A program made the position numbers and the translations under genes. 64,000 nucleotides of DNA from assembly GCA_002633005.1 (NCBI GenBank), contig NMRA01000012.1:1258564-1322563 (forward strand), read 5' to 3'. This document shows positions 35,346-64,000 of this stretch, piece by piece (positions within the stretch are counted from its first letter, which is position 1; every line of letters starts with the position of its first letter). This DNA is from Phoronis australis. Its lineage: Eukaryota; Animalia; Phoronida. The notes beneath the pieces are model-generated. The model was given only the letters and a program-made list of their open reading frames with translations. It ran no database searches and was not told the origin of the DNA.

Positions 35346-35498
35346 AAAATGTCAGGATGAGCACTGTGAAAAGTCCTGCCCACACACAGCCTACCCAAAA
35401 TGTCAGGATGAGCACTGTGAAAAGTCCTGCCCACACACAGCCTACCCAAAATGTCAGGATGAGCACTGTGAAAAGTCCTGCCCACACACAGCCTACCC
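35346..35498. repeat. Perfect 51-bp tandem triplication spanning a MITE junction
   Basis: aaaatgtcaggatgagcactgtgaaaagtcctgcccacacacagcctaccc at 35346, 35397 and 35448. Confidence 0.95.
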
Positions 35499-35893
35499 TA
35501 GAACAACTTGCACTAGTGCAACTTACCCCACTTTTAAGTGGAGCGTCCAAACACACGCATCCGATAAACGGGCAAGACGGAAGTTGTCGCTCGGTGTGTG
35601 ACAATGCACACATATTGCCAATATGGCGCGTAAGAGAAAACACGTCTGTATGTAACTACAGCTGATAATTACTTCTGCCCTACTCCATTTTTGCGACCAC
35701 ACAGCGATTACAAAGTGGTGCAAGTTATGCTGGAACAAGTTACCCCACCTTGATAATGTGGAGTATGTTGTCATAAGTGGGGTAAGTTGTGCTAGCTTAA
35801 AACAGCGTCCAGACAGCACTCAAACCTAGTGACAACCCATTGCAGCACTGGAGTAACTTATTGTAGGGTAAGTCTATGTGTGGATGGCACTTA
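35472..35893 (+). mobile_element. PIF/Harbinger-like MITE
   Basis: Imperfect TIRs (..cccacacacagcctaccctagaacaac / gtaacttattgtagggtaagtctatgtgtggatggcactt). Homologous along its length to 45463-46003. Confidence 0.75.
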
Positions 35894-37589: not shown

Positions 37590-37646
37590 GGCTGCTTGTA
37601 CTGGGGAAGGTGATTGGCTGCTTGTACTGGGGAAGGTGATTGGCTG
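37590..37646. repeat. 26-bp tandem duplication
   Basis: ggctgcttgtactggggaaggtgatt x2, plus a partial third copy. Confidence 0.85.
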
Positions 37647-42536: not shown

Positions 42537-42783
42537 TACGGTAAAATCTCATCAATTTCGGACAAAAATAATTAACAAATTTAATAATCTCTCTTTTCTT
42601 CATTTTTCAAAGGCTTCTCGTGTTGTTTATGTTTAAATTACTCTAATCATTGCCTGATGGTATCCATGTAGAAAACTTTAAAAAAAGCACTTGTTTGGTG
42701 CTATTTATGTTTTGTGAAAAATGGAAGAAAAAGAAATTTCTCTTGTTTACAAAACTGTCCTCTAAATTAGTTCTTGTTACCAT
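42537..42783. mobile_element. pogo/Tc1-like MITE copy
   Basis: Left end tacggtaaaatctcatcaatttcggacaaaaataatt; degenerate right end. Homologous to the 54974 and 60022 copies. Confidence 0.65.
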
Positions 42784-42933
42784 TTTCTAGACTAGGGTGT
42801 CTGATGCTGCAAAATACACTTCTATCTATGGGGCAACTGAGAAAGTGGGTACCCGATATAAAACTAGATCATGAAAAACAGTGTGAACAATTCCGCTTAT
42901 CCCCTTCGAGATGAAGACCGAGTTAGCAACGTA

Positions 42934-43148
42934 CCCCAGATCCTCCTATGGAAAATGACATTCCTGGGTTAGCAGCATGCCCCAGACCCACCTATGGAAG
43001 ATACCTATTCCTGGGTTAGCAGCATGCCCCAGATCCACCTATGGAAGATCCTATTCTTGGGTTATCAGCATGTTCTAAACCCTTCTATAGAGGATCCCAT
43101 TCCTGGGTTACCTGCATGCTCCAAGCTTTCCTGTGGAAGAGCCTCCCT
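42934..43148. repeat. Minisatellite, unit about 46 bp, about 4.5 copies
   Basis: Variants of ccccagatccacctatggaagatcctattcctgggttagcagcatg in tandem. Confidence 0.9.
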
Positions 43149-45462
43149 GACCCGCTTTTTCCAAAATAAGTATGTGATGAGTTTTGACCAGTGACTTACT
43201 ATCTAGATTGCATTGTTACTGGACTGTGTTCAATAGCATGCCAAGTTGTTTGTCAATCATATGTTCATAGGGAAGGAAGATCCCTAAGCAGAAAAGTTGT
43301 GACTAGATTTCTTCACTGAAGTGAAAGTGTGAAGGTGACTAGCACTTGATTCAATATTTCATCTTACGTTGGCCTGGAGTGAGTGACTTACCACTGCCCG
43401 TTTTTTCTTCAAAAGTCTCTTTCCTTTATTTTCACAAGATAGTTTAAACCACAGAAGAGTTTCATCAATCGAGAGATGTAAAAACATTTTTCAGTAATGA
43501 TAATTTGTAAAAAGTGAAGTTCATTGAGCTGTCGTGGCCATTTTGTCAGTGCACCGCTAAAAACTCAAGAATTGTTTTGAAAATTCTATGGTTTATTGTG
43601 GTTTTTGAAAAAACAGTTGATTAGTCTTGAAAGAGCATCATTTGGCATAAAGTTTAAATGGACATTATTGGCGAGGAAAGTAATTGTCTGAGAACAGCAT
43701 CAGTGCGCAAAGTAACCTTTAACACCTGCAGTTGCACCAGTCTAACCTCTGGTTTCGGAGCTGAATCCCACTTGTTAAATGACAGAGAATTTTAAGACTA
43801 TTTAGCTTGTAGTCACCAGCCTTGACCTCCGTGAATGTCTAACAGACAATTAAGAAAATTGGCGACTGGCGATAAAATCACAAAAGCACCAAAATTGGTT
43901 GATTTACAGCATTGTTCCAACGTTTATCCCATTCAACAATAATCCAGAAATGCATTTTTGGTTGTAAAACGGATATTGCCCCTTTAAACTATGTAACTGG
44001 TTTTGCAGTCAATTTCCTACTATGAAGTTTTTTACTGAAAATAAAGGGAAAGCGTATTTTATTATGACATGATGGCGATGAGTTATTGATAAGTGCTGTA
44101 AAATGTGCTAGTTTGAATGTTATTCAATATCCAGCAGGAATTGTAGGGTGTGCTGAACATTTGTCCACTGATGCAGTTCACAAAATTCAATCGGAAAGGA
44201 GCTCCTTAGTGTGAGGCGTCAGCTCTGAAGTGCAGATCACAATATGTCTTTTGATCTCAAGCCTGGTTTAAAAATGACTCCACTATTAGTTCAAGCCGAT
44301 ATCACAAACTTCCAATTGGAGTAAATCAAGTTACTTGCTTTGAACCTCCCTGCTAAAGCAATCAACAAGCTCCATTAGGACCATAGTCTTGTGTGCTATT
44401 AGGAACCCTAACTGGCTGTATTAAAAATCCAAAACAAAAGGTTGCACTGCATGGGGCTGTAAAGCATGCACTATTAGAGTGGGAATGGTTGGGTATTGAT
44501 CTGTCACTGTCCTGATTAGGTCTGTCAGTAATAAGTTAGCTTGTGTATAAGGCCAGCCCCCGTTATCCTTACATTGGACAAGTGGTGGGAATTTTACTAA
44601 GGCAAGGAATCCGTTCTTACGTCTGAGAAGGACTTCTGAGCGCCTGCCATGTGCTAATCCCGGTTTAAGTTTGCCTGGAAATACGTTGCGAGTTATTAGT
44701 CTACTTAATTATATGAGCAAGACGCGAGTGAATTGGTACAATTTAAATGAAAAGGTTATGCTGAAATCGCCTAGGGATTATCTGTAATAAAATTTACTCT
44801 AGTGTCCTTGTAAACTACTGTCTACCTTTTATTGATGAGATCTATACTCCTCTACTGTCGTTCTTTCATAATTCTTATTGACTTGCAAGTGTGAATAGCA
44901 TGAAGGTGGCTGAAAAATCTTGATTCACAAGGAAAGGAAATAAATCCATTCTCGATTTGATTTAAACTTCTTATTTAGCGTTGAAAAAGAATTTAGATCT
45001 TGCTACAAACTTATCAATTCAGGACAATATGGCTGACAAGAGAAATTTTATTTTTCATTTTTTTTACTTTAGATAAATAGCTCCAAATAAATGCTTTATC
45101 GTTTTTCACTTTACACCATAGCCACTGTCAAACACTGTTCTGGATAATCAGGGTATTCACTGTAACTCTAACAGAAGCGTTTGAAAAACAGTTTTGGTAA
45201 TTCTTGTTATCTGAAATTGAAATTGCTGAAATTTTACTGTATTCACAGCATATTCTCTCTTTTCCTGAGCTTCTTAGACGACTTGTTTCTTTAAATTTTA
45301 ATTTAATGTAATTAAAGCATGCGCTTAATCATTCTTGTTTTCTCATCAAAGATGTATTTTCTTGGAGTTTGTTGGTATTGCTTCAATAGCATCAAAGTTT
45401 ATGAAATAGTAAGTTACTTCTAAAATAATCTGTCGCTTTCACTTTTCATAAATTTTTAATCT

Positions 45463-45633
45463 AAGGTCCCGTCCACACACAGCTTGCCCTAGAACAACCT
45501 GCACCAGTGCAACTTACGCCACTTTCAAGTGGAACGTACACACACACACACACACACAGACACACACACAGACACACACACAGACACACACACAGACAGA
45601 CACACANNNNNNNNNNNNNNNNNNNNNNNNNNN

Positions 45634-45677
<44 letters not shown>

Positions 45678-46003
45678 GTATCCGATAACTAAGGTAAGGC
45701 GGAAGTTGTCGCTCTGTGCGTGACAATGAACACCTAATGCCAACACGTTAAGCAAAAGAAAACCTGTATGTAACCGCAGCTGATAATTACTTCCACCTTG
45801 CCGCAGGTTTGTAGCCAAGCAGCGGTTACAAGTGGTGCAAGTTACCCTAGGACAAGTTACACCACCTCGATAATGTAGAGTAAGTTGTCACAAGTGGGGT
45901 AGGTTGCACTAGTTTAAATATTGTCCACACAGCACTCAAACCTAGCGACATCTCGTTCCAGGAGTAACTTGTTCTGGGGTAAGTCTGTGTGTGGACGGCA
46001 CTT
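45463..46003 (+). mobile_element. PIF/Harbinger-like MITE with an internal (CA)n expansion
   Basis: TIRs aaggtcccgtccacacacagcttgccctagaacaa / ttgttctggggtaagtctgtgtgtggacggcactt, in a TAA/TTA context. Confidence 0.8.
45538..45677. repeat. (CA)n / (CACACAGACACA)n microsatellite with an assembly gap (N at 45607-45633)
   Basis: Directly visible. Confidence 0.95.
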
Positions 46004-48604
46004 TAGCTGCAAACATGGCACTCAGTCATGTTGAAACTAGGGGAAAATCTCCCCAATTAAGACATATTATGGCTTACAAATGAAATTTCTATTTTATTTT
46101 TTCATGTCTTTAGTAAAATTTAACAAAAAGTTACATCCATGCATAACAACAGTATCAAAGAAGACGAAGAAGACCAAATTTCATTTTGAGAAAGTTCGGT
46201 TTTCTAAAATATATTTTTTGTTTTCTTCCAACTTGAGTCTCTTAGAAAAATCCTAGAAGTCCTATTTTGGATAACTCCTCACGCACTAGTGGAACATTTT
46301 AACAATTACAGCTTCATTCAATGCGATCAGCCAGTTTAAGATATGATGTTCTGAAGTTGGCCAAATTAAGACATTTTTGAGGGTCCTAGTAACCTTAACT
46401 TATGTCCATAAGTAACAACATGGCTATCAAATGTACAGTACAGCCGAAAGTATCGAGACAAAATGCCCCAGAATTCCCGTCATGATGGTTCTGCGGAAGC
46501 TGAATTCATTGGCAGTGTATCCTTCCCTTACACCGAGAATGAATGGAAATAACAGGAAAGATAGTAAGATGGCTAAGCCATTCTGTAGTTTTAGTACCAT
46601 AGTTTAGTGTTCATTACCTGTCAGTTTTGCTGTTAACAGAATTACCCTTCATGGCAGAGAAACGGTATTTGTTCTGAATACCTTTGCCCTGTACTTCAGG
46701 CTGGCGAGGAATTAGCGGCAGACGTACACCTTTGAATTTACTGAAAATGTCTATGGGAATTCTGTACAGGGGGATAAAAGCACCGTTTTGGAACTACTTG
46801 TTTAGGCATTTCACACTTTAGAGTTAGAACTGTAGATAAAGGTTGTTTCGCGACCACAAGTGTTTATGACCAATGACATAAGTGTTTTAGACCGGTCTGA
46901 ATTTAGGACGGTATTAACATTAAAATGCTCGAAAAGACCGGATTGGACTAGTTACTCCGATTCTGCAAGTGAAGTGCAAAATGTTTAGACCGCATTATTT
47001 TCTCGACTGTCCTCAGTTGCTCAATCCAACGGCCTGGGGTTTGCTTCTCCGAGTTTGGTTTAGTTGCATTTCTATACATTTCAGATGTAATCAAAACAAA
47101 AATTAAAGCTGGGAGGGTTCCTTAGAAACTCTGCATCAGAAAAGTTTGACCTACTTTGAAGTTAAGTAATGGTTCATATAACTGACGGGGTCTGAAACTG
47201 CGTATGCTCTCACAGAGTTTGCATAAGGTTTCTTGACAGCTTTGTCTGATATGGCCGTCGAGCAGGATTATGACATGTCTTCTGTCAAATTGAGAGTTTG
47301 TGGCGAACAGGATGGTGGAGTTGGGTCGTTGTGTTCAAAATAATTATGCAAAGGTCCTGACAATTATAAAGTACCTCGGACAAGAAAACCTTTCTAGTGT
47401 ATAGTTTCCTGCATTGAGTTAAGACGACAGACTGTGTGAAAGGCAGCTGTTGACAACTGGCTTATATTGCTCATTGGAAATATGTTCTAAACCTCAAACT
47501 AGTATGGACTGTAATGCGAAAGCAGCTTTAATACACGTTTTTGAAAATGTTCATAATTGTATGATCCATTACACACTTTGTCACACAGTGGTGTTACACT
47601 TCATTGTAAGTAATCAGTTATGAGGATTATTATTTCAAGTGCAGACTTGGTTATTCGGTGTGTGCTTAAACTTTAAGTACATTTACCGTTGGTATAATCC
47701 AGTGTTCTCCACCTCAGAAAATTCAAACTTAACAAAAATTCATGAACTTGTTCGAAAGTCTGTGTCTGTACTTTGGGGAGGCTTGTACGTTAAATCTTGA
47801 AATTCATGCATCGAACTGGCTCCATAGGTCCAACGTGCTCTAATTTGGTAAAGAAAAGTAAACCTTTCAAAAGTTCAAACTCCTTGCACAGGTTTTCAAA
47901 GTCCATTCAAGTAAGCCACACTTGTTAACATGGAATTCAAACTGGTTATTGTGACAAGTCAAAACTTGTTGTACCGAACACTGTAATCATGACATGGAAA
48001 CGACTCCGTGTTGGCGAGGACCGAGCTTTCTGGTTGCCTTCTCATCTTAACCTGTAGTGGCCAATACTTCTAAAACATGTGACAATTCTGTATTTTTTCT
48101 GTGCCAAAGTGATTCGAATTCTTTATCAGTTTCACCCCATTTGGTGGTCGTTCTCGTTTATCGGTTTGACATCATGTGCTTTTTTGTCTTGTGACTTACG
48201 CTCTTGCTGTGTGATAGAGTGTCACATCGTTCTTTGACACACTCTTGAAGATCTTGGCTGACAGCTTATGGTTGTATATACAGTAAAATCTCACTAATTT
48301 AGGGCATATTAGGGCTAACATAAGTGAAATTTTATTTTTTCATTTTTTTATGAAATAGCTGTTGCACCAATCAAAATGTTTCAACATTTTAGAATTCTGT
48401 ACCACTCGCTACCACAAAAGGCAATAGTGTGATATATAACGTGCCCGTATTTTGGGAACCAGTTTGATGACCGTTATTTAGTGGAGAAAACTGGCTCTCA
48501 AAATTCTGGCACGCTATATCAGACCATTACCACCACCAGACAATGTTTTGAGAAACTGGACAGCCATAACGACATTGGAGGGATTTAGAAAATGAATAGA
48601 TCAG

Positions 48605-50080
48605 TTTTTATTTGCCCACATATTTATATGTGGGGGCACTATGGCGTCTTTCCTGTCCGTTTGGCGTCCGCTGCTCTATTTCCAAAACCTTTTGATGCGT
48701 GTTCATGAAATTTTGCAAATACGTTCCTTTCATGGATGGGACAGCATGAGCGAATTTTTGGACATATCGGACTACGGGTGTGCCGCCTAGTGGCACTTTT
48801 AGTTTTTTACATTTACCACTGTATCTTCAAAGGTTGTCGATGGATTTTTATAAAATGTGGTAAATGGGTATCTATTAGTGAGATGACGCTACCTTCCGGT
48901 TTTCGGATGGATTCAAAGTATTTTTTGCCACCTAGTGGCCATTTTGCTGTTTTCGAGTCTGTTTTTTTGGCATCTGCCACTCTATCAACCAAACTATTCT
49001 AAAGATTGTAAAAATTGACATATATGTTATTACTGTGAAGAGGATGGCCGATGATGATTTTCTGATGACTTTGACTCCTGTGGTGCTTCTAGTGGCAGTT
49101 TTGTTTTCTTTGCGCCCATGGCTGTATTTCCTAAACCTTCTTCAGCCCCTCTATCAACCAAACCACTCTAAGGAGGTGAAGAGGATAGCTGATGATGATT
49201 TTCGGACTTGGACTACTGTGGCCATCCTAGTGCCAATTTTTGTGCTCCAAGGCTATATCTCCCAAACCCTGTGCAGGATTTTTATTAAATTTGGGAAGTA
49301 TATTTATATGAAGTTGACAACCACGACATTTCGACAGTTCCGACTACCACTGTGCCTCCAAGTGGCTATTTTATTTTTTCGTTGGGTTCTGTATCTTTGA
49401 AACTCCATGACCGATTTTTATAAAATTTAACAAATAGATTTCCTATTAAAGAGATGATGTCGGGTTCACGTTTTCTGATAGATTTGACTTATAGCTGCCG
49501 TTTTTACTATGAAATTTTGTAAATAGGTTTCTATTAAGGATACAACGCTTTCTCATTTTTGGTTGGATTTGACATTTTCTACCCCATTTAAAAATTTTGG
49601 GTACACTTTTGACATCATCGTCTCCATCCACTAAACTACTTGAAGAATCATTAGTAAAATTTGGAAATGTGTTCTTGATGAGAAGACCGAGGCTGACGTT
49701 GAATTTTGGAAGTGTTCGACTATTCTGGCAACCCCTGGCATTATTTTGCGTCCACGGCTGTGTCTTTTTTATTGTTTGCAAAATCTTTATGAAATTTTAC
49801 TGAGGCATTCCTATGGAGATGGCAACAGCTATTAGGAAGACAACAGCACCTTTCCTTTTTGGGATGGATACATTTATTCTGCTCCAGCTAGGGGCCGTTT
49901 TATTTTTTAAACTTTTTTGTCATCTGCTTCTATATCTGCGGAGGATCATTAAGGAAATTGGCAGATTTTCATGAAGTTTGGCAAATAGTTTTTTGAGGCG
50001 ACACATTTTGGATGGGTTCAATATATTCTGTGCCATCTAATGGTCATTTTTATGATACAAATGAACATCCATAGAAGTAA
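48605..50080 (+). mobile_element. HINE/Helentron-like element with internal tandem subrepeats
   Basis: T-rich start, 5' hairpin cccacatatttatatgtggg (48615-48634) and gtccgt-like motifs. Repeated gattttta(t)aaattt and ctagtggc blocks. Homologous to 31398-32145. Confidence 0.7.
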
Positions 50081-51818
50081 CACGTTTGCAGTGTAGTCGT
50101 TGGCACATTTCAACATTGAGCGTTGCTCTTGTAACAATTATTTTTGCTCAAAATTGGTGAGATTTTACTGTTATGCCGCCACACATGCTGACTATTGTCT
50201 TGCATCCCAGGTGTTTATTCTACGTTTATTTTATTTGAAAGTCTTTAAAGAGTTCTACCTGGCCACTGACCAATTAATTTCCGAAGGTGTTGGCAGGTAA
50301 TGTCTGTATTTAAAGTTTTAGCAGTGATAATGATGCCTCCTAATTGCTAGGTATGACCCAAACGTAAGCCGTAAAGTCCTTGTGAGGCGATTGTGAGGCA
50401 TTAGGAATTTCATCACCTTAGTATGGATTAGTACTGTCTGCAATAAGGTGTCATCTAATTCATTTGAACTTAAGACCAGAAGGGTCACCTTGGGAAGTCT
50501 CGGGTAGGTTAATCCACCTTTAGGATACACTGGTATTATCTTGTTTTCCGTGGCGTTCGTTTTATTTGTTTCTGAGTGAGTGTTTTGTGGTGAAAGTTGT
50601 ATGAATGTGACCATTCCTTATGCTATGGCACAAATTCTTCAGTTGGGGACACAATATTAAAGTGAAATTTTATTTCGTCAAATTTCTCATGAAGACTACT
50701 TTTTCGTGAAACTTTACTTGACTTTTAGCATGCTTTGTACAGTACAGCTGGCACCAGACATTTGGAAATTTTGAGCCTTGGGAGCTATGTACAATAGTCA
50801 ATTTTCTACCGAAGTAAAGAAATTTTAGCCTAGTAGATACAAGGCCTATACATACCTGACGGACCATTGGGTAAACAGGTCAAAGGCAAACACCAGATGT
50901 GGAATTCCAAAACTTCAATTTTTAGTAAGTTCTCCAAAATGGACATCTTGCAAATTTGTTTCAGTTCAAAAAGGTCTCTTTGAACTTAGTTTTGTTCGTA
51001 GAGGTTCAAGATATAGTGCGGTGTGCACCTTTTCTCTGTGCTAAGAGCAGTAGCGCTGAATGGGTGATGAACCTGGCTTGCCATTGGTTAAAAGTCCAAA
51101 TAAACATTATCTGATTGGTTGGAAGGTAACATTCAAGAATTTCCATTGGTTGGAAGTTCAGACATACTAGATCGACATGTTCCACGAAAGGTTGTGTTGC
51201 TTGAATCACTCAAGATATCTGGGCATCAACTAAACAGTATAGAGAGATTCATTACACTTTTCTAAGTGTATTCCGGTGTCATTTGTTTATGACAATTGTC
51301 CAATTTACAGAGGCATGCATATTGATGTCTTTTAGAAGTAATTCTGTGTAAAATGATCCTCCTTTTACAATGCCACTTCTCCAGAGGTGGCGCTGTGAAA
51401 GAGCGTGTACGGTAGTTCGATGTATCTTGTTGGTCTGATGATTAGGAAATCTTGAGATGTCAAGTTAGGTAACCATTTCATGACATGCATTACAATGTCA
51501 TATTGCTAGGAGTATATTGCCCGCGATTTTGCATCTTGCATAAGTTATTTTTCGACTAGTCAGAAGTGGATTAGTGGTTTCATTTATGCCTTCTAACTAT
51601 GAACTCCCAAAGGCAGTTAACAGCCAATGAATACCATGCATGGGCGATGATTTCAAATTGTTTTCGGCATTTGAACACAAACATAATTATTTCTTCATTG
51701 TTTATTTATTATTTTTATATCTATATCTATGATCTACAAGGAAAAAATAATAAAACTACTATTGCTGTTTTTATGCTTATGTATGCCAGCATGATGTAGG
51801 CTCATGACCTTGACCTGA

Positions 51819-51840
51819 ATGAGGTTACCTCCTCCAAAAG
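51819..51840 (+). CDS. Weak candidate alternative first coding exon (MRLPPPK, phase-1 end)
   Basis: ATG 51819, 7 codons + 1 nt, strong donor AAG|GTAAGC at 51840/51841. Short enough to arise by chance. Confidence 0.3.
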
Positions 51841-54800
51841 GTAAGCAGTGCCAAAACTGCTTTGGTCAACATGACATGCATCGCGAATAGCGAGACTGTC
51901 ACAGGTGTACTATTGCCTGTATTCCACCCACGCAATGCATTAGGAAATCAACACTCTGAGACAGATAGGTCGCTGTGAGAATAGATCTAAACACTGATTA
52001 GTTCCTTGAGTTACTGCGTCAGTCGTAAACGAGGCCAGCATAGTCTGTGGTATTCTTTAGAGCATCTATCTTAGCGTTTTACTATGGATTTACCCTATGG
52101 TGTCGTGTAAAGGTCGATCTAGACGCAAAGAATGCGTGGTCGGGAGTGAAGGAGTTGTTAGATGTTGGCAGATTTCAAGGTAGCTGGTTTTACCTGTATG
52201 GTTTTGCCTGAAGAAACACCATTATCCTTTTGCAAATAACATCGTTTTCTCTCAAGTAAATGTTCATGGGAATAGAAAATTGTGAGTGACGGAAGACTGG
52301 CTGCCGTGTAAAAGCCAATATTTTCTGTTTTATTGCTGCAGTCCTAGCGGGATTTCATTAAAAGATTTCAGCCTCCAGTCACCGTCATGTTTTGGCATGT
52401 TCTCTGTTTCACTATATTGAACTGTTGGAAAAACATTTTGTCTGAACCTATGTTAAAGTCTCACCAATTTCAGACAAAAATAATCGCCAAAATTACCTTT
52501 TTCTCATTTTCAATATCTTTTTGCATTGTTGTGACTGCCCAGAAGTTTTCAGATTTTGGTGCCGTGGTATGTCATTCAAAACTTTAGCTTGGTAAAGCAT
52601 AACATTTGATGCTATATCTGGTACGAAAAAAGGAGAAAACATAATTTCAGCTGTCCGCCATACTGTGCCCTAAAGTGATGTGGTTTTGCCATATATAAAC
52701 CTACAACAGGTGGCATAGCCTGCTGCAGCATTTTAAGGCCACATGCAACGTCCTCTTTGAAACCCATTTTCACTCTTTTTTGGATGGAACATTTTGTTTT
52801 AATACTACCAATTCGCATGCTCAGTTTCACACGATAACTCCATGAACCGAGTGCATTTCATTGGTTGCTTCAACGGTAAGATTAACTCGAATGAACATGG
52901 CTTATTCCTGATTGAAGTTTACGACTTCTGACCCAATCATTAGCGCTGCGTGGGACTTTAACCCTGATTAAGTTTGGGTTGAATTCTTAGTTCTTGTCAA
53001 ACTTCTGACTAATTATACTGCATTACCAAATCAAGTTCTTCTGTTTTGAAAAGTATATTCCACACTGGAATTGTTTTGAACAATGCCAGTAGGTGGAGGA
53101 GGTTTCTATGATTTTTACCAACATATATTCTTTATCAGTAAGGATTTAGGCGATCAAATTGTCTTGCTTCTGTTTGTGATCTATATGAGGGGTCCTGTAC
53201 TGTACTCACAGGTGCAGCGATGGTGAATATTCAGGAACGACATTGTGAAGGAACCACATTGACTTCTGATAGACTGCTTGAAAATAATTTCGTTATCAAG
53301 TAAAAAGAAAACGATTACTCCGGATGTATTCAAGTGGTGCAATGCAGGTACCATTTCCCTAAGTGAATTTCTTACCTTGTATTTCTTCTTTTAGCACAAC
53401 TGCCTCCTGGATTTGATTTCTTAGAAGGGAACAGTCATCTTGTAAGTTATGAATGTTGTGATTTAGGCGGAGCTTTCTATTATATTTTGTTGCTGGTTTT
53501 ATGATTTCTTTGTTGGTATATTACGCATGTCTTCTCAAATCCTTGTGCATTAAGCAGGAAACAACGACTCGCTGGTAGAGAACGACTGATGAATTATTCT
53601 CAAACCTCAGTCACCCGCTTTTTTACATTATGGCATGAACACACTTTTGTCATTGATAACGAGACATTATGTCTTAATTAGAGGGGTGACCTCAGTACAC
53701 AGTTTTTCACGCGGTACAATCAATGCTGTGCACAGCCATAGAACATTCCACATGCTATGCATTTTCACACCAACTTACCAACTTACTTGTAGCAGTAATA
53801 GAGCTTTGATTGCAATCGATGTTTCTGCAAACGTACTATCTTTGATGTTGAGACGTACCCGTAAGGTATCCGTTAGCCTTGCTTTTTAATATGAGTTGCT
53901 CTGCCAGCCAGAAATTGCTTTAAAGTATAAAGGTCTTGAAGTCTGCTAACCAGTTAAAATGCATGATGCTTGTGAAACTGTAACATTAATGAGGAGGTTA
54001 AAAGAAAGTATGTAACCGAAATGAAGGCAGCGTCTTCAATTTCACACACATGAATAATTGCCAAAATTTCTTTCATTTCCAAAGATTGAATGTGTATAGG
54101 GTGTTCACATTTTTCTGAAGTTTTGTTTTATGATAGCTGTTCCACACACATTGTGAAGTGAACTTTTTCTTAACTCTATTTTTTCAGAAATTTGGGGAAA
54201 TTGAAATTCCACTTAAATGCCGTATTGTATGCTAAACGCAAGACTGTTCATCATATTCATAACTTACATTATACAAAGTAGCTACTGCAAGTGTTTGCTA
54301 TTTTTGAAGTTGATACACATCAACTTGTCAAAGTAGGGTCTCTCTTTTTGCTTTGAAATGGAAACAAAACTGTACTTTGACTGGATTTGCGCTTTATCCT
54401 TCTGCTCGGTTGTGCCAGCCCTGTTTTTTCTGTGATCTTGGGTTCCGTCTCTGGTTAATTATTTCCTCTGGGTATACAATTGTTCTTCCGGCTCCCAGCC
54501 TCACTCCAGCCGAGTGAGGTTGTGACCTTTTCCGGGTATCAGTTGCACCTCCCCAGGTTGTACTAATGCACAGTTGTTGCGCCCCTCGGCTGTTTTCTCA
54601 CTTGAGCTTACATGAATGAAACACACGTATTATCAGTGGATACAACCAGTTCCCCACTTCAGATGTGTTAGTCGTTCCATCTAAGGTTATCAGAACTGCT
54701 GGTATCTGAACTGTAAGGGCTATTATAGTTTTCTCCGATTAAACACAATTTCTATGGCAAATGTATGTCGACGTTTTTTGGCTCCGTTGTCCTTGTAGGT

Positions 54801-54973
54801 CCAAGGCAGCTGGGCATTTCCATTATTGTTATAACTGTTGTGAAATGTTGAGAAATATGACATTTATGTTTAGTCATTGGTGATAGCAGCCATGAGGTTG
54901 TAGTGTCATAAGAAATGGTTCAAACAAACCGTGGGAATATGCGCTTGGGTACGTTAGTACAATATGAACGTAA

Positions 54974-55217
54974 CTGGTAAAACATCCTTAACTTCGGACA
55001 AAAATAATTGTCAAAATTGGTCTTTTTTCATTTTTCAAAGGCTCTTACATTCTTGTGAACTTTCACAATTTCTCAAAAATATTGTCTTATGAAAATTGTG
55101 GTATAGAACTTACAAATTATAATTTAGAGGTTTTTTGTGTTACGTACATGATAAAGGGCAAGAAGAAAATTCCACTTGTCGGCCATATTGTGTCCTAAGT
55201 TTGTGAGATTTTCCCAT
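54974..55217. mobile_element. pogo/Tc1-like MITE copy
   Basis: ggtaaaacatccttaacttcggacaaaaataatt ... tgtcctaagtttgtgagattttccc. Confidence 0.65.
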
Positions 55218-55568
55218 ATAACTACTCAGCTATTTTGTCACCACAATGTCTCAGTGGGTATTTCACTCAGCTAGGTTTAATCTTAGGTGAGTATTTTGAC
55301 TTTGTGGTACCAGTGGTATCGTCCTAGGTACTTTAAGTGTTTTGGTTTTGTGACGGTAATGTCTTGTGTGGTCGGCAAGAGTTAGTGATGTCATGCATTT
55401 CGTTAGGTTTCTTATCATTTGATGTCATGCATTTTGTTAGGTTTGTTATCATTTGGCTTTGTCTCATACACTGGTTTTCCGATTGTCCAGGTATTGCCAC
55501 GGTCTATAGTTCATATGTATTGTACCTTGCCTGTGAGGTGGAAGTGGACTTCGCTGAAACTTTACTTT

Positions 55569-56018
55569 CCTTTCCCACTAGACACCGATATCGAAGTTTT
55601 CGCTAGATTGCGATTTAGTCATCGGAGTAAACACCAGATGGCGCAGTTCATTCGTACTCTCAAACAAATATTAGAGTGGTGGGTAATAAGAGATAATAAA
55701 TAATAATGAGGAAAAAGAATGACAGAAATAAGAAATAAGAATGATGAACTGAAATGTACCAACGTAAACTGACTCTTCAATAACAAAGAGTCATTAAGTC
55801 TCACTGATCCTATATCGTTGCTGAGACCTCTCCGAATAACTTTGCCGAAGTTTCGCTCCGAGTTTCCCCACTACAATGATGTTTCGTTGAGTACCAAAGC
55901 TTGGCTTTTAAATCCTTCTATTTTCCGCAAAGTTTCACCTGCAGATTAACTATCAGAGTTAACCTTTCCCACATACCGAAACTTCGCTTAAAGCAAAGTT
56001 TCACCTCTAGTGGGAAAA
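55569..56018. mobile_element. Harbinger-like MITE
   Basis: TIRs tttcccactaga / tctagtgggaaa, with internal cgaagttt and tttcccac subrepeats. Related fragment at about 15540-15595. Confidence 0.55.
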
Positions 56019-59000
56019 CACTGTTAGAAAGTAAAAGTAACTTGAATTCAGTCTTCCTGTGCCGGCCAGTCCTTTATTCCTTGTTGTTGCTAGATATTAT
56101 CACAAGATTACATTTTTTTCACCGGGCTTCTCCTCCAGTTGCAAGTGCTCATTTTCTGCTTCCTTGTCTCCATAATATCATTAGAACATTGTTTCATTTT
56201 ATCTACTTTTTGCCTGGTTATGATTTTATATCGTAGTCATCATCAACATAAAAACAGACAATCCAGCATTTTGTCAGGCATTGTGCTTCTTCTAAGATAA
56301 CCCTTCAGGTCAGACAAATAATGCTTCTTGGAATGTTGGTCATATCCTGGAGAAACTCTTGGTTTGTGTGGTCAAAGGCTTTCCATGAATCTAGGAAGTT
56401 GAGAGGATAGAAGTATCTGTGTTCACTTGTTTCTTGGTCAGTTGTGAGATGGTGTCCAGGTAATTCTCATGTCAGTCTGTTGAGAGATTTCTCCTTAATA
56501 CTGGTATTAATCGTTGGTTTGTTAGTGGATAGGTGTCATAAATCTTATTGATTATGCTTTGAAATTGAGAATTTTGAATTTGGATTAATAACTAGCTATA
56601 GGCAGAGTCATGGAATAACATCATATTCACAGCAAGCTTTGAATACAATGAAAGCTGACTGAAAGCTTTCGTTGACAACCTGCTGTCTTAGTCACTCTTT
56701 TTCACGAATTGACTGTAAGATAGCACGGTGTCAGACAACTCTAGTTGATTAAATTCACACTCGGTATGGTGTCTAAGGTAGTAATGCTACACCTTCAGGA
56801 GATAGTAAAGGTCTGCATCCCTATGCAGACACTGGAGTCATTAGTAGATTTCATGAATTTGGAAAAACTGCCTTCTCGTCAGTATGCACAGGGCATCCTA
56901 CCCAGTTGGATCTCTATGCTGGTATGATCGTCACATTCAAAGATGTTCACACTAACTAGGGCTGTTTGTAAAAGGATGCTATTAGCTGATGAACTTTGCA
57001 GAATTGTTTTTCTCTAATCACAACCAAAGCATCTCACCTTTTTGAAGCAATGAAAAATTTTTCAGAAATTATAGAGGTAGGTAGAGAAAATTGATTAATC
57101 CGCAGCTTACCTTACTAACTTTATTTTAAAGCTTACTTGAGCCGTCATTACTGTTTCTAAAAGCCAGCTCAGACACCTACGTGACTGGCATTGTTATGAG
57201 GAGGTGTTTCATATTGATTAATAGAGGTGTGAACATGGGTACTCTTGTGAGATTTCTTCAAAACAGATCACCTTTTCTAGTTTCAGTTAACAAAGTTTAA
57301 TTTTTATATGTATTGTTAACAGAGACATTTTCTGAAAATCTTGTTTGTTATATCCTAAACTTTTGGTATATTGAGCACCAGTTCTTCATCTATTTAGCAG
57401 ACAAATGGCCGACAATTAAAATTTTGTTTTGTCATATTTTTTAAAAAAATAAGAGGTTGAGAAAATTAGTGTTATTAGCACAATAAAACTCTATAGGTAA
57501 AGGTGCTATTATTTGCAGCACTTTAATCAACCTTGGAAAGATGGGAAATTGACACATTTGGCAGTTATAGTTATTTTTGTGTCAAATAATTGGAGAAGTA
57601 TAGCAGTATGAGCTCATGGAGTTAAATTTAAGTGTTTTGTTAACCCTTCCAGTAAAGGTTCTATTTTTAGGAAAATCTTTTTTTTCCATATTCTTCATAC
57701 TTTATACCATTAGTAGTATTTATTACAGTAAATTCTGCTGCAATTTTTGTGCTAAGGAAAGTATTTTCAAATCACAAACTTACTGGTGACAGGACTCATG
57801 GCGCAATTATTACACTTAAGCAAATCTTCCTCTGCTCTTCAGCAGGGGAGGTAGCATTTAGCATGGTGTGTTCAGCTGACATTCCGCCAGCCTGCAGGTC
57901 AAACTGTTCTCAATTAACCCAGAACTTTTACAGACATCTGGTTCCCGTTTGCTCCGTTTATATTTCTCAATTATTTTAGGCTATCCAGTCAAAACTCATT
58001 TGGACAGACTTGCCCTGAGAGCTGGGCTGCAGTTTCCTCATGTGTCTGTGTATAGTGAGTAGAATTGGTAATTCACTCCATTGGTGAGTTTACTCCAGGT
58101 CCTGGCCTTCAGTTACCTCTGCGTGGTTTGCTCTCATTCGATTATACTCCAGGTTGCACTACAAGCGATGAGACTGCTGCCTCCATTGGTGTAGCTGTGT
58201 GCCAGTAACTGTTTCAGATACTGTTCCGTTCTGTTTTGATTCCTGATACTGTACTTCACCTGTGATCTGGTGAGTTGAAATTTCAGCCAACAAGGCTGAA
58301 TCTCGTTGGTTGGGAATTGGTCTTTGACAGAGGATAATGAGGAGTTTTAGTCTTTTACAGAATTCATTCATGCAGTGTTTGTCATATTTGACTCTTAGTT
58401 AGTTCGTGATAGACAGTATAATTAACAGATTATTGTCCCGACATTTCTATGTTGTTGAGGAAATCAGTTGTGTCATGTGTTTGTTTATTTGCGTGTTAAT
58501 GTCCAACATTGACATTAATGAAACATCTTCCCCATGAAAGAGGACAAGCCTATGATAAAATGACTGAATTGTGGGACAGTGCAAGGTATCTTATTCAACA
58601 GATATACCACAGCAGGGCTGACACAGGTTCTCGTAACTTATTTGAAATGTGGCCTGATTCATATTGGGTAATATTTGCTTTGGGATCAGACAAACGGCCG
58701 TTGATTGCTCTGAATGCAGTAATCCAGACAACGCCACGTAATACTTCTAGCGTAGCCTAATTGACCCGACGGACTTTGGCAAAAGTAGTACTAATCGGCG
58801 ATATGTTCGTAGAAATGGCAAATGATCTAATTTACAGTTATTAAAAGGTTTGGTAGTTATCCGGTCTTATGCAAGTCGTGGTCAATAGCTAGTAATGCAG
58901 ATGTCTCAGTATTTATCTCCTTCATTTTGTTCTCAATGCACAGAGCTAGAGTGGTATTGCTGTTATGTCTGACATGCTTTTTTTACTGAAATTGTTGCCC

Positions 59001-60021
59001 TTTCATGCTCTGTGAGGCTAAAACCTCATGGCGCCACATCCTTGCGACTTGTAAATCGAAATTTATTAGAGGAACAGAGCATTTACTGTTTTGAAAGAAC
59101 AAGTTTGCCTGGTCGTCCGTTTGTACTATAACATCTGGACCTTTGATTGGTCAATGCACACATGCTGGGATTGTTGTTTTGATAATAATGTTGTCAAATC
59201 ATAAGAAGTGCTTGACCAGTTTGATAGTTTTTGTCAAATTACTACAAGACCAATGAAGCGTAAGTCCAACTAGTAATAAATTGTTTGATAATATTGTCAA
59301 ATAAAATCAACAAGACTGCGTGCCATATCAGGAAGTATCAAATAAATGTTGGGAGGATCAAGAAATAGTACAACCTGAAACAAATGTACCCACTTTTCTT
59401 GAAGCTAAGTGACTACTGTTTTCCAAGTTTGGGACAATAATACGGTATTATCGACTTGGGAGGTAGACAGTAGTGTGTCACTGGTGAGGATGCAGAGAGT
59501 GTTCAGGGTTCCCTTCCTGTCCCCTCTCAGTTATTTGGACTGTGTTAGATCCAGAAGGGACGGAACCTTTTTGCTCTCTAATTTTTTCATCGCTACATTG
59601 GAGAAATCTTCAGTCACCCTTGAAACTCATGTCTATTACTATGAATATGGGTTTTAGTTTGAACTGGGTTTTCCTTTTCATAGACTACATACCATCCATT
59701 TATTTTAAGTGGTATTTGTACTTACTAATTATTTTTTGTCTGGCTAATATGAAATTTCATCCATTACCTCCTCTGCACTGGCTGTGTATTTTTGGTACAA
59801 GACAGAAGTTTTTATGTGTCACTCAATGCATGATATTTACGACTGGTCGCATTCCTGCCATAGTCATTAAACCATGTGACCTTGGGTGCAGACAATACAA
59901 ACTTTGCTGATGTGATGGGTGGATGGCTGGATCAACTTCTTTCAGGAGCAATGTTGCGTAATTGCTGGGGGCAGGGGAGTGTGGTACAGTTTGGTCTCTG
60001 TTTTTTCTAGCCATGAGCTGG

Positions 60022-60250
60022 TACGGTAAAATCTCATCAATTTTGAACAGACGTTATTATCAAAATTGTTCTTTTTTCATTTCCCAAGGTCTAACGTTGT
60101 GAATAGTCGTGTTTTTTCTAGCATCTGATGGTGGCTGTGCTTCAGAACTTGAACATGAAAAGCATTAATTTGGCACGGCATGTCTGAAGAGTAATAAAAC
60201 AAGATTTCACTTGATGGCCATGTTATGTGCAAATTGGTGATATTACCACA
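60022..60250. mobile_element. pogo/Tc1-like MITE copy
   Basis: tacggtaaaatctcatcaatttt ... aaattggtgatattacc. Confidence 0.65.
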
Positions 60251-60950
60251 ATGTGATGATTGTTGCGACTCAATGTGAATACTTCACTATGGTCAGAACA
60301 CCATCCCAGCTTAACCCCTCTTTTGTTTGATGTTAGTGGCATAATACCATATGGGATTAAGTGGGTAGAATTTCTTTATTTTTGTTGGAAGACTGATTAC
60401 CCAAAAGAAAACTTCCATTTAATGTTTTCTAAAGGCAATGTCATACCTGCTATAATATTTTCATGAAATGGGCAGAAATGAGAGTGAGAAATGATTTACT
60501 TAGGCCAAAAATGCCTCGATTACAACACTTTTTAGATAGGGTAACTTACTCAAATATGCACATCACTTAGACGGTTTCCACTTAGTTTGCCAGGTTTTCA
60601 AGATCGTACTGAGAACTGTGTACCTTGGTATGACAAAGCTCTTGGGACACACATCTAGGATACTTCATGTAGCCTTGCAATAGTCAGAATTCCACCATGT
60701 GGTGTTTACTGACAGCCGTGTCTAAATATGCTAAAATGATGTTTTCAAAATTTATTTTGGCGAGAAATTTAAGATAACAAAATTTCCCTTTTATTATAGT
60801 TTAAATTAAACTGACATGAGGTCTTAGGGTTGTTATTTTCTCTGAATGTCAGTTGAAGAATTCAGTTTATGTACTGGAGCATGACGCTCAACAATGAAAG
60901 CTAGTTACAGTTTCATTTCCTCGTTTTCTTCCTAAAATTAGAGCTTTAAT

Positions 60951-61072
60951 GGGGCGTAGGCACACATAGGCGCATCCAACCACCTTTTGGCATTTGAACG
61001 TAACGCCTACGCACGGTAAGTTACGTTCAGTGCTCAAGGTGGTACGGTGGGCTTTGGGCGCCTACCTACCTC
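60951..61072. repeat. Small hairpin / mini-MITE
   Basis: accacctt..tgaacgtaac (60979-61004) pairs with gttacgttca..aaggtggt (61020-61043). Outer pair taggcgc / gcgccta. Confidence 0.65.
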
Positions 61073-61522
61073 TTATTTTACCACTACAGCACTGCCTAAA
61101 AGACATGCATAACCATAAACACCTCCATGTGCAAGTTCTGTACCATAGCTCTGAGCATCAAACCTTATTTTGAAGTATTGTGGGCATACTAATATTGTTA
61201 GAAAACCTTGAAAACTGGAAAAGGAAATTTTGGAAATTGCTTTTGTCCAAAATTAGTGAGGCTTTACCGTGTTTTCATTGGGTACCAAAATTCGAAGAGT
61301 TAAAAGAGTTAGATCATGTGGACACCCTTTTACGAAGAGGTTGCCATTTTATTTCAAACTAGTTCTTGAAGTCTGCTTGTAATGGTCAGTACCTGTATCC
61401 ACCAATGTACAGAGAAACAGGTGATGGGTTATTTCTAGAACTCTGCTGATCTGCTTTAGGTATTTGACCTAATGCCATACTCTTCATAAGTAGACTTAAT
61501 TCCAATGTTTTTTTGATCTGTT

Positions 61523-61756
61523 TCATTTTAATGCAGGCATAGAATAGGGCTGTTCCAAATTACACGGCGATAAAACTCTCCTTTGTCCTGGAGATAAGAA
61601 AGCCTGTGACCTAGTTTCGGAAATCAGGCACATTTTCATGTCTCTCACTGATCTCGGAAAGGCGAAAAATTTCAGTTCACGAATACACGTGTCCAGTTTA
61701 TCAAACTTTTTCATATAGAAGTTGCAGCCCACAGCACAGCAGTTCTTAGTTGGCAT
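61523..61756 (-). pseudogene. Decayed THAP-domain fragment (transposon-derived)
   Basis: MPTKNCCAVGCN...LKFFAFPR matches the THAP N-terminal CxxxxC and FP motifs. The C-terminal CxxHF is lost. Confidence 0.6.
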
Positions 61757-62376
61757 TGAAAGGACAAATACAGTAATGCAACCAAGAAAAACTTGTAAAG
61801 AATCGGACAACAACTATTAACATGTCTGACGAATGTATACGGTATTGTGGATCAATACAGCGAGATTCGAGTGTCGCTGTGTAATCCGGGATGGCCCTAT
61901 TGGAGGTGTTCAGTTCTGTTTAACTCCATCAGTTGCAGTCTGCCTCTAATGTTTCTGTAGATGTTTTTTAACACTTTTATGTTAGGTCATTGTATTCTTT
62001 TCAGACCTCACCCAAAACACAATTTTTGACTAGTTCAAGTCAAAACTGAACTTTGTAGTAATTTGAGGAGTGTATAGGATGTCCTATTTTCTAATTGTCT
62101 GCTACATTTTTTAATGTGTTGCGATGGACATTGAATTAACAAATCTTGCTCTGTGCAGAGCAGAGTTTTGTGGAGTAAAGTGTTTGTTTTTCAGAAAGAG
62201 ACGTAAGGTTTTGTGAACTGTTGGATGAGTGTTTCCCTATGAGCGGGAACTTGCCTACCTTCAGCTAGAGCATGGTAATTTCCGGGAGATAAGAACATGT
62301 GACCAGTGTGAAACAATAAGAACTTCTCCCTTGTTATGACCTAAAATGAACCGCCCGAGGGCCGTGTTCACCTGTA

Positions 62377-62479
62377 TTCTAACTGACCTCGTTTTTTGTT
62401 TCTTTTCTAGGTAAGTCCTCAGCCACCAGACCTTGATTATAAGACTCAGACTGAATAATTATACGGATCTCAGGTAATG
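62377..62479 (+). other. Candidate recursive splice site (3'ss/5'ss fusion TAG|GTAAGT) with a 63-nt stop-containing exon at 62411-62473
   Basis: Branch point TTCTAAC at 62377-62383 and pyrimidine tract 62387-62408. TAG ends at 62410 and is immediately followed by GTAAGT. Second donor CAG|GTAATG at 62473/62474. Confidence 0.6.
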
Positions 62480-62771
62480 AATCTGATCATTTCCTTTTTG
62501 CTCCGGTGGTAGGGTATAGTTGTGTTGGAGATTATGGAAGAAGGGAGGGAGAGAAAATTATGGTGTGATATCTGTGGTATGATGTCTTCATGTGTGTGTT
62601 TGTGTGTTTGTGTGTGTTGAGGTGTATGTGATGTTATGTTTTTCGTCAGGTTGAAGATTGATGAACTAAGGCAGCATACTCTTGGTTAAACGTACATGCC
62701 AGCCACAGTCTCTGCATTTATGAACAACTCTGTCCAAGTAGTATGATTATAATGCCTTGTTGAATGCAAAT

Positions 62772-63340
62772 AACCGAGCACCACGTCTACGGGGTATTCT
62801 CAGTGAGTATCCAGCACCACATTTACGGGGTATTGAGAGCGAGTAAACAGCACCTGACTTTTGCAGAATATCATTATTAAGTAAACCGCACCATATTGAC
62901 AGAGTATCATTATTAAGTACACCGCACCATGATTTCAGAGTATCATTATTAAGTAACCAGCACTTTGTTTTACTAAGTATTATTAGTGAGTAAATGGTAC
63001 TACATTTGCAGCATCTTATTTACAGAGTATTGTGAACAGCACCTTGTTAACAGAGTATTGTTACTAAGTAAAGAGCGCGGTTTACAGAGTATTGTCATTG
63101 AGTAAACATTACCATATTTACTAAGTATTTTAATGAATCAATAGCACCGCATTTGTAGGGTACTGTCCATGAGTAAATTGTACCGCATTTTCAGAGTACT
63201 GTGATTAAACAGGAACACGTTTACGGATTATTTTCAATGAATAAATGTTACCACATTTGTAGAGTGAGTAGCACCGTATTTGCAAAGTATTGTTGATGAG
63301 TTTATAGCACCATGTTTATAGATTGTTTTAATGGGTAAAA
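62772..63340. repeat. Degenerate minisatellite, unit about 33 bp (agtaaacagcaccatatttacagagtattgttatt-like)
   Basis: Recurring agta..gcacc...ttt.cagagtat motif, roughly 15-17 units. Confidence 0.85.
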
Positions 63341-63354
63341 AATGTAATGTTTAT

Positions 63355-63580
63355 CAGTGGCGGATCTAGGATATCACAAGGGGGGGCCCAACATTTTGTC
63401 CAGCTGTAAGCATTTGTGCAAATCACGATTGTAGATGCGTATAGCACCGAATGGGGGGAGGTCGGAAGGGGGGCGAACCCCCGCCCAGGAAATTTATCTG
63501 TTTTTTCCTCTAAAAATCAAGCCTTTTCCTTGATTCCTGAAGTATTATCCAAGAAAAAAAAAGCAAAAAAAAAAACAAAA
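63355..63580 (+). mobile_element. hAT-like element left end
   Basis: CAGTGGCGGATCTAGG followed by G-runs (ggggggggccc, ggggggaggtcggaaggggg), a typical hAT MITE head. No right end was seen. Confidence 0.55.
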
Positions 63581-63610
63581 ACACAGGGAACGTGTCAAAC
63601 AGGAAAAACT

Positions 63611-63680
63611 GCAAGTTCCACAGACTCTAACTCACGACCTGGCGGATAGAGCGCGCGTGCTTTACCACTACACCACCACG
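63611..63680 (-). pseudogene. tRNA-derived sequence / SINE head
   Basis: The minus strand reads gtggtggtgtagtggtaaagcacgcgcgct...ggtcgtgagttagagtc: an A box and a mutated B box. Confidence 0.55.
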
Positions 63681-64000
63681 ATTTAATTACTAATCTTATC
63701 CAAAGAGACCTTTGGCTACTTGTTTACGGTCCACAGCGTTTGCGATCGAAACCTACTTCTTTTTGTAATGCTTGTTACACGTTTTATATTTTGTGCAATC
63801 GGTTCTTAACAAATTTGTTGTGTTTAAAATAGTCTTCAAATACCCAAAAGACCAAATCCGTTTTTCGTGTTGGCAATAATGACGGGATTGCTTTGGAAAT
63901 CATCTTAAGTTAAGGTTTGACAAAAAGAGAATTATGAGTTTCTGAGTGATTCACTAAGGCTTCGATTAAAATTCATATCTTACCAGCAGCTTCTGTTTTT

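What the first reader, a model, noticed from the sequence alone, without database searches (positions are those of the whole stretch)
62377..62479. Candidate recursive-splicing (ratchet) site with a poison RS-exon in a very long intron
Seen: a near-ideal 3' splice site. It has a TTCTAAC branch point 28 nt upstream, an AG-free tract ctcgttttttgtttcttttc, and TAG at 62408-62410, and it is fused directly to a perfect donor hexamer GTAAGT. A second donor, CAG|GTAATG, lies 63 nt later. The 63-nt exon has a stop in every frame (TAA at +2, TGA at +24, TAA at +46). The site lies about 43 kb after the 19161 donor and 28 kb after the 34100 donor. Splicing any candidate upstream exon (ending CAG or AAG) onto it rebuilds a full-consensus MAG|GTAAGT donor. 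Established: this AG|GT plus cryptic-exon architecture defines recursive splicing in Drosophila and vertebrate long introns, where RS-exon inclusion can trigger NMD depending on the upstream exon. Inference: stepwise intron removal, and possibly promoter-dependent quality control, in an animal lineage where I am not aware it has been characterised.
Basis: partly seen in the sequence, partly recalled or inferred. Interest (0 to 1): 0.8.

Follow-up and report, generated by a model that had tools for sequence, protein, structure and literature searches.

The report
Expressed exon with latent recursive donor
RNA reads show that the flagged site starts a real 63-base exon that is kept in the message; because it opens with a perfect intron-start signal it likely doubles as a stepping stone for removing a long intron in other versions of the transcript, a known trick of flies and vertebrates whose stepwise part was not observed here.

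Summary
The motif is exactly as described and beyond chance: best of 247 + strand AG|GT sites, matched in 0 of 450 local shuffles. RNA changes the reading. In 2 of 3 raw RNA runs, 62411-62473 is a spliced exon that is kept. All 8 reads with a listed upstream junction come from an exon ending CTT at 53441, 8,969 nt upstream. None comes from 19161 or 34100, and 51840 has no RNA cover. All 11 sense reads on the exon leave through its own donor; none runs on into the intron. The rebuilt donor CTT|GTAAGT is weaker than the exon's CAG|GTAATG, so inclusion fits donor competition. Best reading (0.5): an expressed RS-exon, kept behind this weak-ended exon and likely ratcheted away in longer isoforms; that second step is unseen. 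Main rival (0.35): an ordinary, likely untranslated exon that starts GTAAGT by coincidence. The poison/NMD role is unsupported. Gene and organism were not identified. The scan has noted such sites in other invertebrate genomes (137 word matches). New member of a known kind; interest 0.35.

The parts
53395..53441 (+). Upstream exon E1 (3' part; ends CTT). 5' limit uncertain: 53395 if the acceptor at 53394 is used, but it may reach back to about 53212
   Evidence: Loose end before 62411 in 5 reads of X6 and 3 reads of X8 equals window 53412-53441; sense depth 0.69 (X6) and 0.18 (X8) in bin 53201-53800
53442..62410 (+). Intron of 8,969 nt, GT..AG, donor CTT|GTAAGT
   Evidence: Junction reads, length; T>A skew 0.107, z 8.0
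62377..62383 (+). Predicted branch point TTCTAAC (A at 62382)
   Evidence: Sequence; branch use not tested
62389..62407 (+). Polypyrimidine tract, AG-free
   Evidence: Sequence; the acceptor ranks 5th on +, and 5 of 3,528 AGs reach its score
62408..62410 (+). 3' splice site TAG, used in RNA
   Evidence: Sense depth steps from 0 to 5 (X6) and 0 to 4.3 (X8) exactly at 62411
62411..62473 (+). 63-nt exon E2, included in spliced RNA; stop codon in each frame, no ATG
62411..62416 (+). Latent recursive donor hexamer GTAAGT at the exon start
   Evidence: Sequence; after splicing to E1 it rebuilds the same -3..+6 nine-mer as E1's own used donor; its use as a donor not observed
62471..62479 (+). E2's own donor CAG|GTAATG, used in RNA; next exon lies outside the window
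   Evidence: Loose end behind 62474 in 6 X8 reads; no match to that exon's start in the window at up to 3 mismatches

Best explanation
62411-62473 is a real 63-nt exon that is kept behind a nearby exon ending CTT, and it likely also acts as a recursive (ratchet) site for longer transcripts of the same gene. Shown: the strong acceptor at 62410 is joined to the exon ending at 53441, and the exon leaves through its own donor at 62473 to an exon beyond the window. Computed: after that first join the rebuilt donor CTT|GTAAGT pairs with U1 less well (-5.4 kcal/mol) than CAG|GTAATG (-8.1). Inferred: the outer donor therefore wins, possibly helped by the exon junction complex, and the exon is kept, likely in a 5' untranslated leader. 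Inferred and unseen: transcripts starting further upstream, whose exons end CAG or AAG (candidates 19161, 34100), would rebuild a much stronger donor (-12.1, -10.6), re-splice from 62411 and drop the exon without trace, cutting a long intron in two.
For: Exon borders and both neighbours are shown by RNA. The motif is the single outlier among 484 AG|GT sites on both strands and unmatched in 450 shuffles. All 8 listed upstream junctions come from the one weak-ended exon (agreement 1.0), as donor competition predicts; U1 energies rank the donors in the needed order. T>A and G>C skews on + hold upstream of E1 too (19162-34100 z 6.6; 34101-53200 z 7.8), and X7 has a few sense reads at 50201-51400, so a longer + unit likely crosses the site. 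X7 has sense intron reads but no sense read on E2. Literature prior: such sites are 4-22 times enriched on the sense strand of large introns in sea urchin, fly, bee and beetle (PMC2773006 Table 2, section read); recursive acceptors are stronger than ordinary ones (PMC6110457, passage).
Against: No recursive intermediate: 0 of 11 sense reads on E2 run past 62474 into the intron. No upstream exon ending in MAG was shown to be transcribed or joined here; 19161 and 34100 were outside both lays, and 51840 has zero depth. In X8 the cover of E1 (about 108 bases) is accounted for by inclusion reads, so no skipping product was seen. The level is not trace (depth 5-6; roughly 7-9 TPM on crude assumptions). 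Exons that rebuild a donor are common and mostly constitutive: 3.6% of human exons, 93.8% of them constitutive (PMC6224609, passages). In flies fewer than 50 RS-exons are expressed against more than 500 intronic sites (PMC8605326 introduction). The site was picked because of its motif, so the chance figures overstate the case. The 11 reads are mates of perhaps 5-6 molecules.
Confidence: 0.5

Rival explanations
1. An ordinary internal exon, likely of a 5' untranslated leader or a non-coding RNA, that begins with GTAAGT by coincidence. The latent donor is tolerated because the preceding exon ends CTT and the exon's own donor (and the exon junction complex) suppress it; no recursive splicing happens in normal cells.
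For: 11 of 11 sense reads include the exon and 8 of 8 listed upstream junctions are to one exon 9 kb away. No ATG in E1's last 47 nt plus E2. By eye, the next exon's first letters hold an ATG preceded by in-frame stops, as a leader/start exon would. Included exons with latent donors are common in humans, with a similar share in sea urchin (PMC6224609). It needs nothing unseen.
Against: A full six-of-six donor directly after one of the strongest acceptors is rare: GTAAGT occurs at 4.5e-4 per position, so about 0.01 such cases are expected among the 21 acceptors scoring 6 or more. An exon-poor 64-kb window would show this by coincidence well under 1 time in 100 (rough estimate), whereas invertebrate large introns carry 0.5-2.2 such sites per 100 kb. 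The 63-nt, stop-filled exon matches the size and content of fly RS-exons (about 50 nt).
Confidence: 0.35
2. One reading: E2 lies inside a coding region and is a poison exon. An upstream phase-1 exon reads through the 47-nt E1 and then stops at +46 of E2, so the included form is an NMD substrate and the productive mRNA omits E2 by recursive splicing or skipping.
For: If 19161 or 34100 (both ATG-led, phase 1) were joined to 53395, the frame is open through E1 and closes at +46 of E2, 15 nt before the next junction. By eye, two frames of the next exon's first letters are open.
Against: The included form is readily seen (depth 5-6 against intron depth 0-0.3) and no E1-to-next-exon product was seen. 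A stop 15 nt before a junction needs further downstream junctions to trigger NMD (established rule, recalled). X6's 414 bases in E1's bin match 5 reads of about 83 nt lying locally, which would put in-frame stops upstream of E1's last 47 nt. No protein relative was found for E1 or the 19045-19161 stretch.
Confidence: 0.12
3. A chance motif in intronic or repeat DNA, or a mapping artefact.
For: Few reads; much of the window's RNA cover comes from repeats.
Against: 62051-62760 has no other copy in the window. 13 of the 14 reads laid from X6 and X8 are at least 99% alike, depth steps at both predicted borders, and the upstream partner maps 9 kb away with GT..AG ends.
Confidence: 0.02

Closest known systems
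Expressed RS-exons of Drosophila (Ubx m1/m2, msi, heph, ps, sm, mub; PMC8605326, introduction, one results section and discussion read)
   Same: Short exon whose first bases form a donor directly after the acceptor; own downstream donor; inclusion seen in mRNA; outcome expected to depend on donor competition.
   Different: There recursive use was verified by mutating the recursive donor; here it is unseen. Ubx m1/m2 are 51 nt and conserved; this exon has stops in all frames and conservation could not be tested.
Rare CADM2 isoform that retains its RS-exon (aCADM2 versus mCADM2; Sibley 2015 as described in PMC6224609, passages; the original paper not read)
   Same: One RS-exon that is kept in one isoform and removed recursively in another; this is the two-outcome model proposed here.
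   Different: Only the included outcome is observed here. That the preceding exon's last bases set the switch in CADM2 is recalled, not seen in the passages.
Annotated, mostly constitutive RS-exons held in by the exon junction complex (PMC6224609, passages)
   Same: Meets the spirit of their definition: the exon rebuilds a usable donor at the junction with its preceding exon, yet is included.
   Different: Their MaxEntScan threshold could not be computed; EJC dependence is untested; most such exons are ordinary coding exons.
Cryptic intronic ratchet points of Drosophila (kuz, Bx, Ubx-RP; PMC8605326; PMC6110457 passages)
   Same: Very strong acceptor fused to GTAAGT, second donor under 100 nt downstream, out-of-frame content, intron-rich long transcription unit.
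   Different: Those exons are essentially absent from mRNA; this one is present in all sense reads seen, so it is not filed as a cryptic ratchet point.

Membership tests
Cryptic intronic ratchet point (zero-nucleotide recursive site) | Strong 3' splice site fused to a strong donor (AG|GTRAG) | tested here: met
Cryptic intronic ratchet point (zero-nucleotide recursive site) | Acceptor is used in vivo | tested here: met
   8 junction reads with a listed loose end in 2 of 3 raw RNA runs
Cryptic intronic ratchet point (zero-nucleotide recursive site) | Second donor under 100 nt downstream defining an RS-exon | tested here: met
   CAG|GTAATG at +63, used in RNA
Cryptic intronic ratchet point (zero-nucleotide recursive site) | RS-exon absent from mature mRNA | tested here: not met
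   Included in 11 of 11 sense reads on it; isoforms that omit both E1 and E2 would be invisible in the stretches laid
Cryptic intronic ratchet point (zero-nucleotide recursive site) | Part-spliced intermediates and saw-tooth intron cover | tested here: inconclusive
   0 of 11 reads continue past 62474; mean sense intron depth 0.13, 0.23, 0 over 11 repeat-poor bins; library selection unspecified; 18-19% of each run read
Cryptic intronic ratchet point (zero-nucleotide recursive site) | Lies in a very long intron | tested here: inconclusive
   Upstream segment shown is 8,969 nt; downstream segment over 1.5 kb, end outside the window; a longer unit is suggested by skew only
Cryptic intronic ratchet point (zero-nucleotide recursive site) | Recursive lariats; conserved AG|GT motif | not testable with these tools
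   No genome held, no relative found, no lariat search available
Expressed / annotated RS-exon | Junction with the preceding exon rebuilds a donor of usable strength | tested here: met
   Rebuilt -3..+6 nine-mer is identical to the donor used at 53441|53442; MaxEntScan itself not available
Expressed / annotated RS-exon | Included in mRNA through its own donor | tested here: met
Expressed / annotated RS-exon | Skipping, where it occurs, depends on the rebuilt donor (mutation, EJC depletion) | not testable with these tools
   Needs reporter or knock-down experiments
Poison exon (AS-NMD) | Stop codon in the frame of an upstream coding region | tested here: inconclusive
   True only if a phase-1 coding exon feeds a 47-nt E1; that junction was not observed and no protein relative was found
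Poison exon (AS-NMD) | Included form is NMD-sensitive and scarce | not testable with these tools
   No NMD-inhibited data; included form is readily seen

The most novel reading that the evidence does not exclude
An upstream-exon-controlled recursive switch in an invertebrate outside arthropods and chordates (an earlier scan note suggests a horseshoe worm; not tested here). An internal-promoter or cassette exon ending CTT keeps the 63-nt exon, while distal exons ending CAG/AAG ratchet it away. This would be an RNA-supported case of two-outcome RS-exon logic in a third animal branch and would point to its origin in the bilaterian ancestor.
Probability: 0.35. Interest if true: 0.6.

Novelty: new member of a known kind. 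Interest (0 to 1): 0.35.

Why it matters
The mechanism is known from flies and vertebrates. My searches found no paper pairing recursive splicing with lophotrochozoans or molluscs (one search was uninformative), but the library lacks most subscription papers. Blazquez et al. contrast included RS-exons (deuterostomes) with cryptic ones (flies). A site with both outcomes in another invertebrate lineage would help decide which state is ancestral and whether the preceding exon's last three bases act as a general isoform switch. Practically, the case shows that a textbook ratchet motif read from DNA alone can be an expressed exon, so such calls need RNA. As one site with the recursive step unseen, in an unidentified gene, it is a moderate lead.

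Tried and rejected
Own genome: none held, so no genome-wide enrichment test. Run search: no RNA holder listed; three raw RNA runs were added by species label. First lay of 46001-64000 at 90% likeness was swamped by repeat reads; the E1-E2 joint was not among the 15 of 98 joints shown. X9 contigs: 0 laid. X5 (another label) has near-identical contigs elsewhere at depth 2 and no listed piece over the site, so it is useless for conservation (61 pieces not shown). 51840 as upstream exon: rejected for these samples (zero depth). 19161 and 34100: never laid; both lay calls are spent. Gene identity: protein searches with 19032-19163, 53367-53501 and 147-287 found nothing; the representative search gave one ankyrin-repeat protein, judged spurious. 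Pfam 0 of 14 (12 window ORFs or pieces of the first kb and of the 24 listed ORFs, plus P0001). Rfam 0. Exact 23-mer over the junction in metagenome contigs 0. Scan notes near, in relatives, or on ratchet sites in this genome: 0. Other + strand YAG|GTRAG sites (6431, 15976, 19161, 55286) are not among the top joint scores and were rejected as ratchet candidates. Saw-tooth test abandoned for lack of depth. Papers: searches; no supplements were opened, and none is relied on.

Full report
Observation. It is the only AGGTAAGT on either strand. The bare YAGGTAAGT is not rare (0.5-0.8 expected per strand), but with a 17-of-19 pyrimidine tract and a branch motif it arose in 0 of 300 order-2 and 1 of 300 order-4 Markov strands. 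With approximate, recalled weight matrices it scores 12.7 against 3.4 for the next of 247 + sites and 6.4 for the best of 237 - sites, and 0 of 450 block shuffles reached it. These definitions were set after seeing the site. The stretch 62051-62760 has no second copy in the window.

Setting. The window is 38% G+C, repeat-rich animal-like DNA with no long ORF, no Pfam hit in 14 pieces tested and no Rfam hit. T>A and G>C skews on + hold in five of six segments (z 2.4-8.0 for T-A; the last, short segment has z 1.0), as expected for long + transcription (inference). No genome is held. The organism was not identified here; a scan note on this genome suggests a horseshoe worm (e1-10416423, unchecked).

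RNA evidence. Three raw RNA runs under the same species label were available; 18-19% of each was read. On 62138-62767, with bins set to the exon borders, X6 laid 8 reads, X7 2, X8 6 and the contig set X9 none. In X6 sense depth goes 0 to 5 at 62411 and falls to 0.24 after 62473; in X8 it goes 0 to 4.3-6 and falls to 0.29. The residue is one base per read, the G shared with the next exon. Loose ends before 62411 (5 reads in X6, 3 in X8, agreement 1.0) equal window 53412-53441, the end of an exon E1 followed by GTAAGT at 53442; the intron is 8,969 nt. Six X8 reads show the next exon, whose start is not in the window. All spliced reads have the first mate on -, which fixes that direction as + RNA. 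X7's two reads are an unspliced pair of the opposite direction. The other three X6 reads are intronic. The 11 exon reads are overlapping mates, perhaps 5-6 molecules.

The acceptor, the exon and its donor are real. But the exon is kept: 11 of 11 sense reads on it leave at 62474 and none runs into the intron. The partner is not 19161, 34100 or 51840; the bin of 51840 is empty in 3 of 3 runs, and the other two lay outside both lays. In X8 the 108 bases on E1's bin are explained by the three inclusion reads. In X6 the 414 bases exceed what a 47-nt E1 gives (235, or 376 with mates) and match five reads of about 83 nt lying locally. So E1 may extend upstream (a possible acceptor at 53211, or a first exon), although extra reads, including some that skip E2, are not excluded. 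Mean sense intron depth in 11 repeat-poor bins is 0.13, 0.23 and 0 (the 18 other bins besides E1's were dropped as repeat-laden or holding E2), too low for a saw-tooth test. The absence of intermediates is therefore inconclusive.

Mechanism. After E1 joins 62411 the junction reads CTT|GTAAGT, the same -3..+6 letters as E1's own, demonstrably used donor. Its predicted U1 duplex is -5.4 kcal/mol, against -8.1 for E2's donor, -12.1 if 19161 were joined and -10.6 if 34100 were. So inclusion behind E1 is what donor competition predicts, and removal without trace is what it predicts behind a CAG- or AAG-ended exon. The first half is observed. The second is inferred and would be invisible in the stretches laid. 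Competition is not the only factor in flies: exon content and upstream splicing also matter (PMC8605326). The stops in E2 need not make it poison: the last 47 nt of E1 plus E2 hold no ATG, in-frame stops lie just upstream if E1 is contiguous, and by eye the next exon's first letters contain an ATG behind in-frame stops, although its two other frames are open. The coding reading survives only if a phase-1 exon feeds a 47-nt E1, in which case translation stops at +46 of E2. Protein searches did not settle it.

Weighing. For recursion: the donor is six-of-six; about 0.01 such cases are expected among the window's 21 strong acceptors; invertebrate large introns carry 0.5-2.2 such sites per 100 kb on the sense strand against about 0.1 on the other (PMC2773006); recursive acceptors are unusually strong (PMC6110457); the exon's size matches fly RS-exons. 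Against: expressed RS-exons are under a tenth of fly sites; included exons with latent donors are common and mostly constitutive (PMC6224609); nothing recursive was seen; the site was selected for its motif. I put the two-outcome RS-exon at 0.5, the ordinary exon at 0.35, the poison model at 0.12 and artefact at 0.02. These are judgements, not computed posteriors.

Comparison and novelty. It works like the expressed RS-exons of Drosophila and the RS-exon-retaining CADM2 isoform. It fails the 'absent from mRNA' test for cryptic ratchet points, so it is not filed as one; it meets the two testable criteria of an expressed RS-exon. What I saw of papers: PMC8605326 (outline, introduction, one results section, discussion), PMC6224609, PMC6110457, PMC5126111, PMC8911335 and 10.1101/2025.08.14.666599 (passages), PMC2773006 (abstract, one results section), 10.1101/2024.12.11.627982 (abstract). 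Sibley 2015, Duff 2015 and Joseph 2018 were not read and are known only through these or recalled. Searches pairing recursive splicing with 'lophotrochozoa', with 'ratchet' and 'mollusc', or with 'invertebrates', 'conserved' and 'ratchet point' gave 0 papers; with 'sea urchin' 6. The scan holds 137 notes with these words in at least 13 genomes; of the 8 shown, five on animal candidates report DNA-only evidence and one an RNA hint (unchecked). Verdict: a real, RNA-confirmed exon with a latent recursive donor; new member of a known kind; interest 0.35.

Noticed in passing
window 53212-53441 (+): Possible upstream part of E1: acceptor-like AG at 53210-53211 followed by GT, a 27-codon ATG frame at 53220-53303, and a GT..AG stretch of only 47 nt at 53348-53394. 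X6 read bases fit E1 extending into this region. CCAAT-like boxes lie at about 52.8-53.0 kb, so an internal promoter is possible.
   Followed up: partly
window 19045-19161 and 34058-34100 (+): Two candidate exons with ATG-led frames, both ending in phase 1; the second sits behind a CA-repeat-rich stretch like an alternative first exon. No protein relatives found for the first; neither was laid with RNA.
   Followed up: partly
window 50211-50296 (+): Exon-like 86-nt stretch (CAG before, CAG|GTAATG after) that also starts with GT; X7 has about 66 sense bases in its bin.
   Followed up: no
window 147-780 (+): Several short open frames with splice-like borders, perhaps a separate gene or a transposon; no Pfam hit and no homologue.
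   Followed up: partly
window 62328-62484: One unspliced read pair of the opposite direction in X7 spans the whole site (antisense RNA or DNA carry-over).
   Followed up: no
window 48400-50200, 55000-55600, 60400-62200, 62800-64000: Interspersed repeats that attract hundreds to thousands of RNA reads from other loci; 48.4-49.6 kb is strongly one-stranded.
   Followed up: no
window 45607-45633 and 27285: Run of 27 N inside a CA microsatellite and one N in a C run: small assembly gaps.
   Followed up: no
window 58362-58662 and 60250-60511: Run X5, filed under another organism label, has contigs with 1 and 0 differences to the window at depth 2, so it probably holds DNA of this or a very close species.
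   Followed up: no
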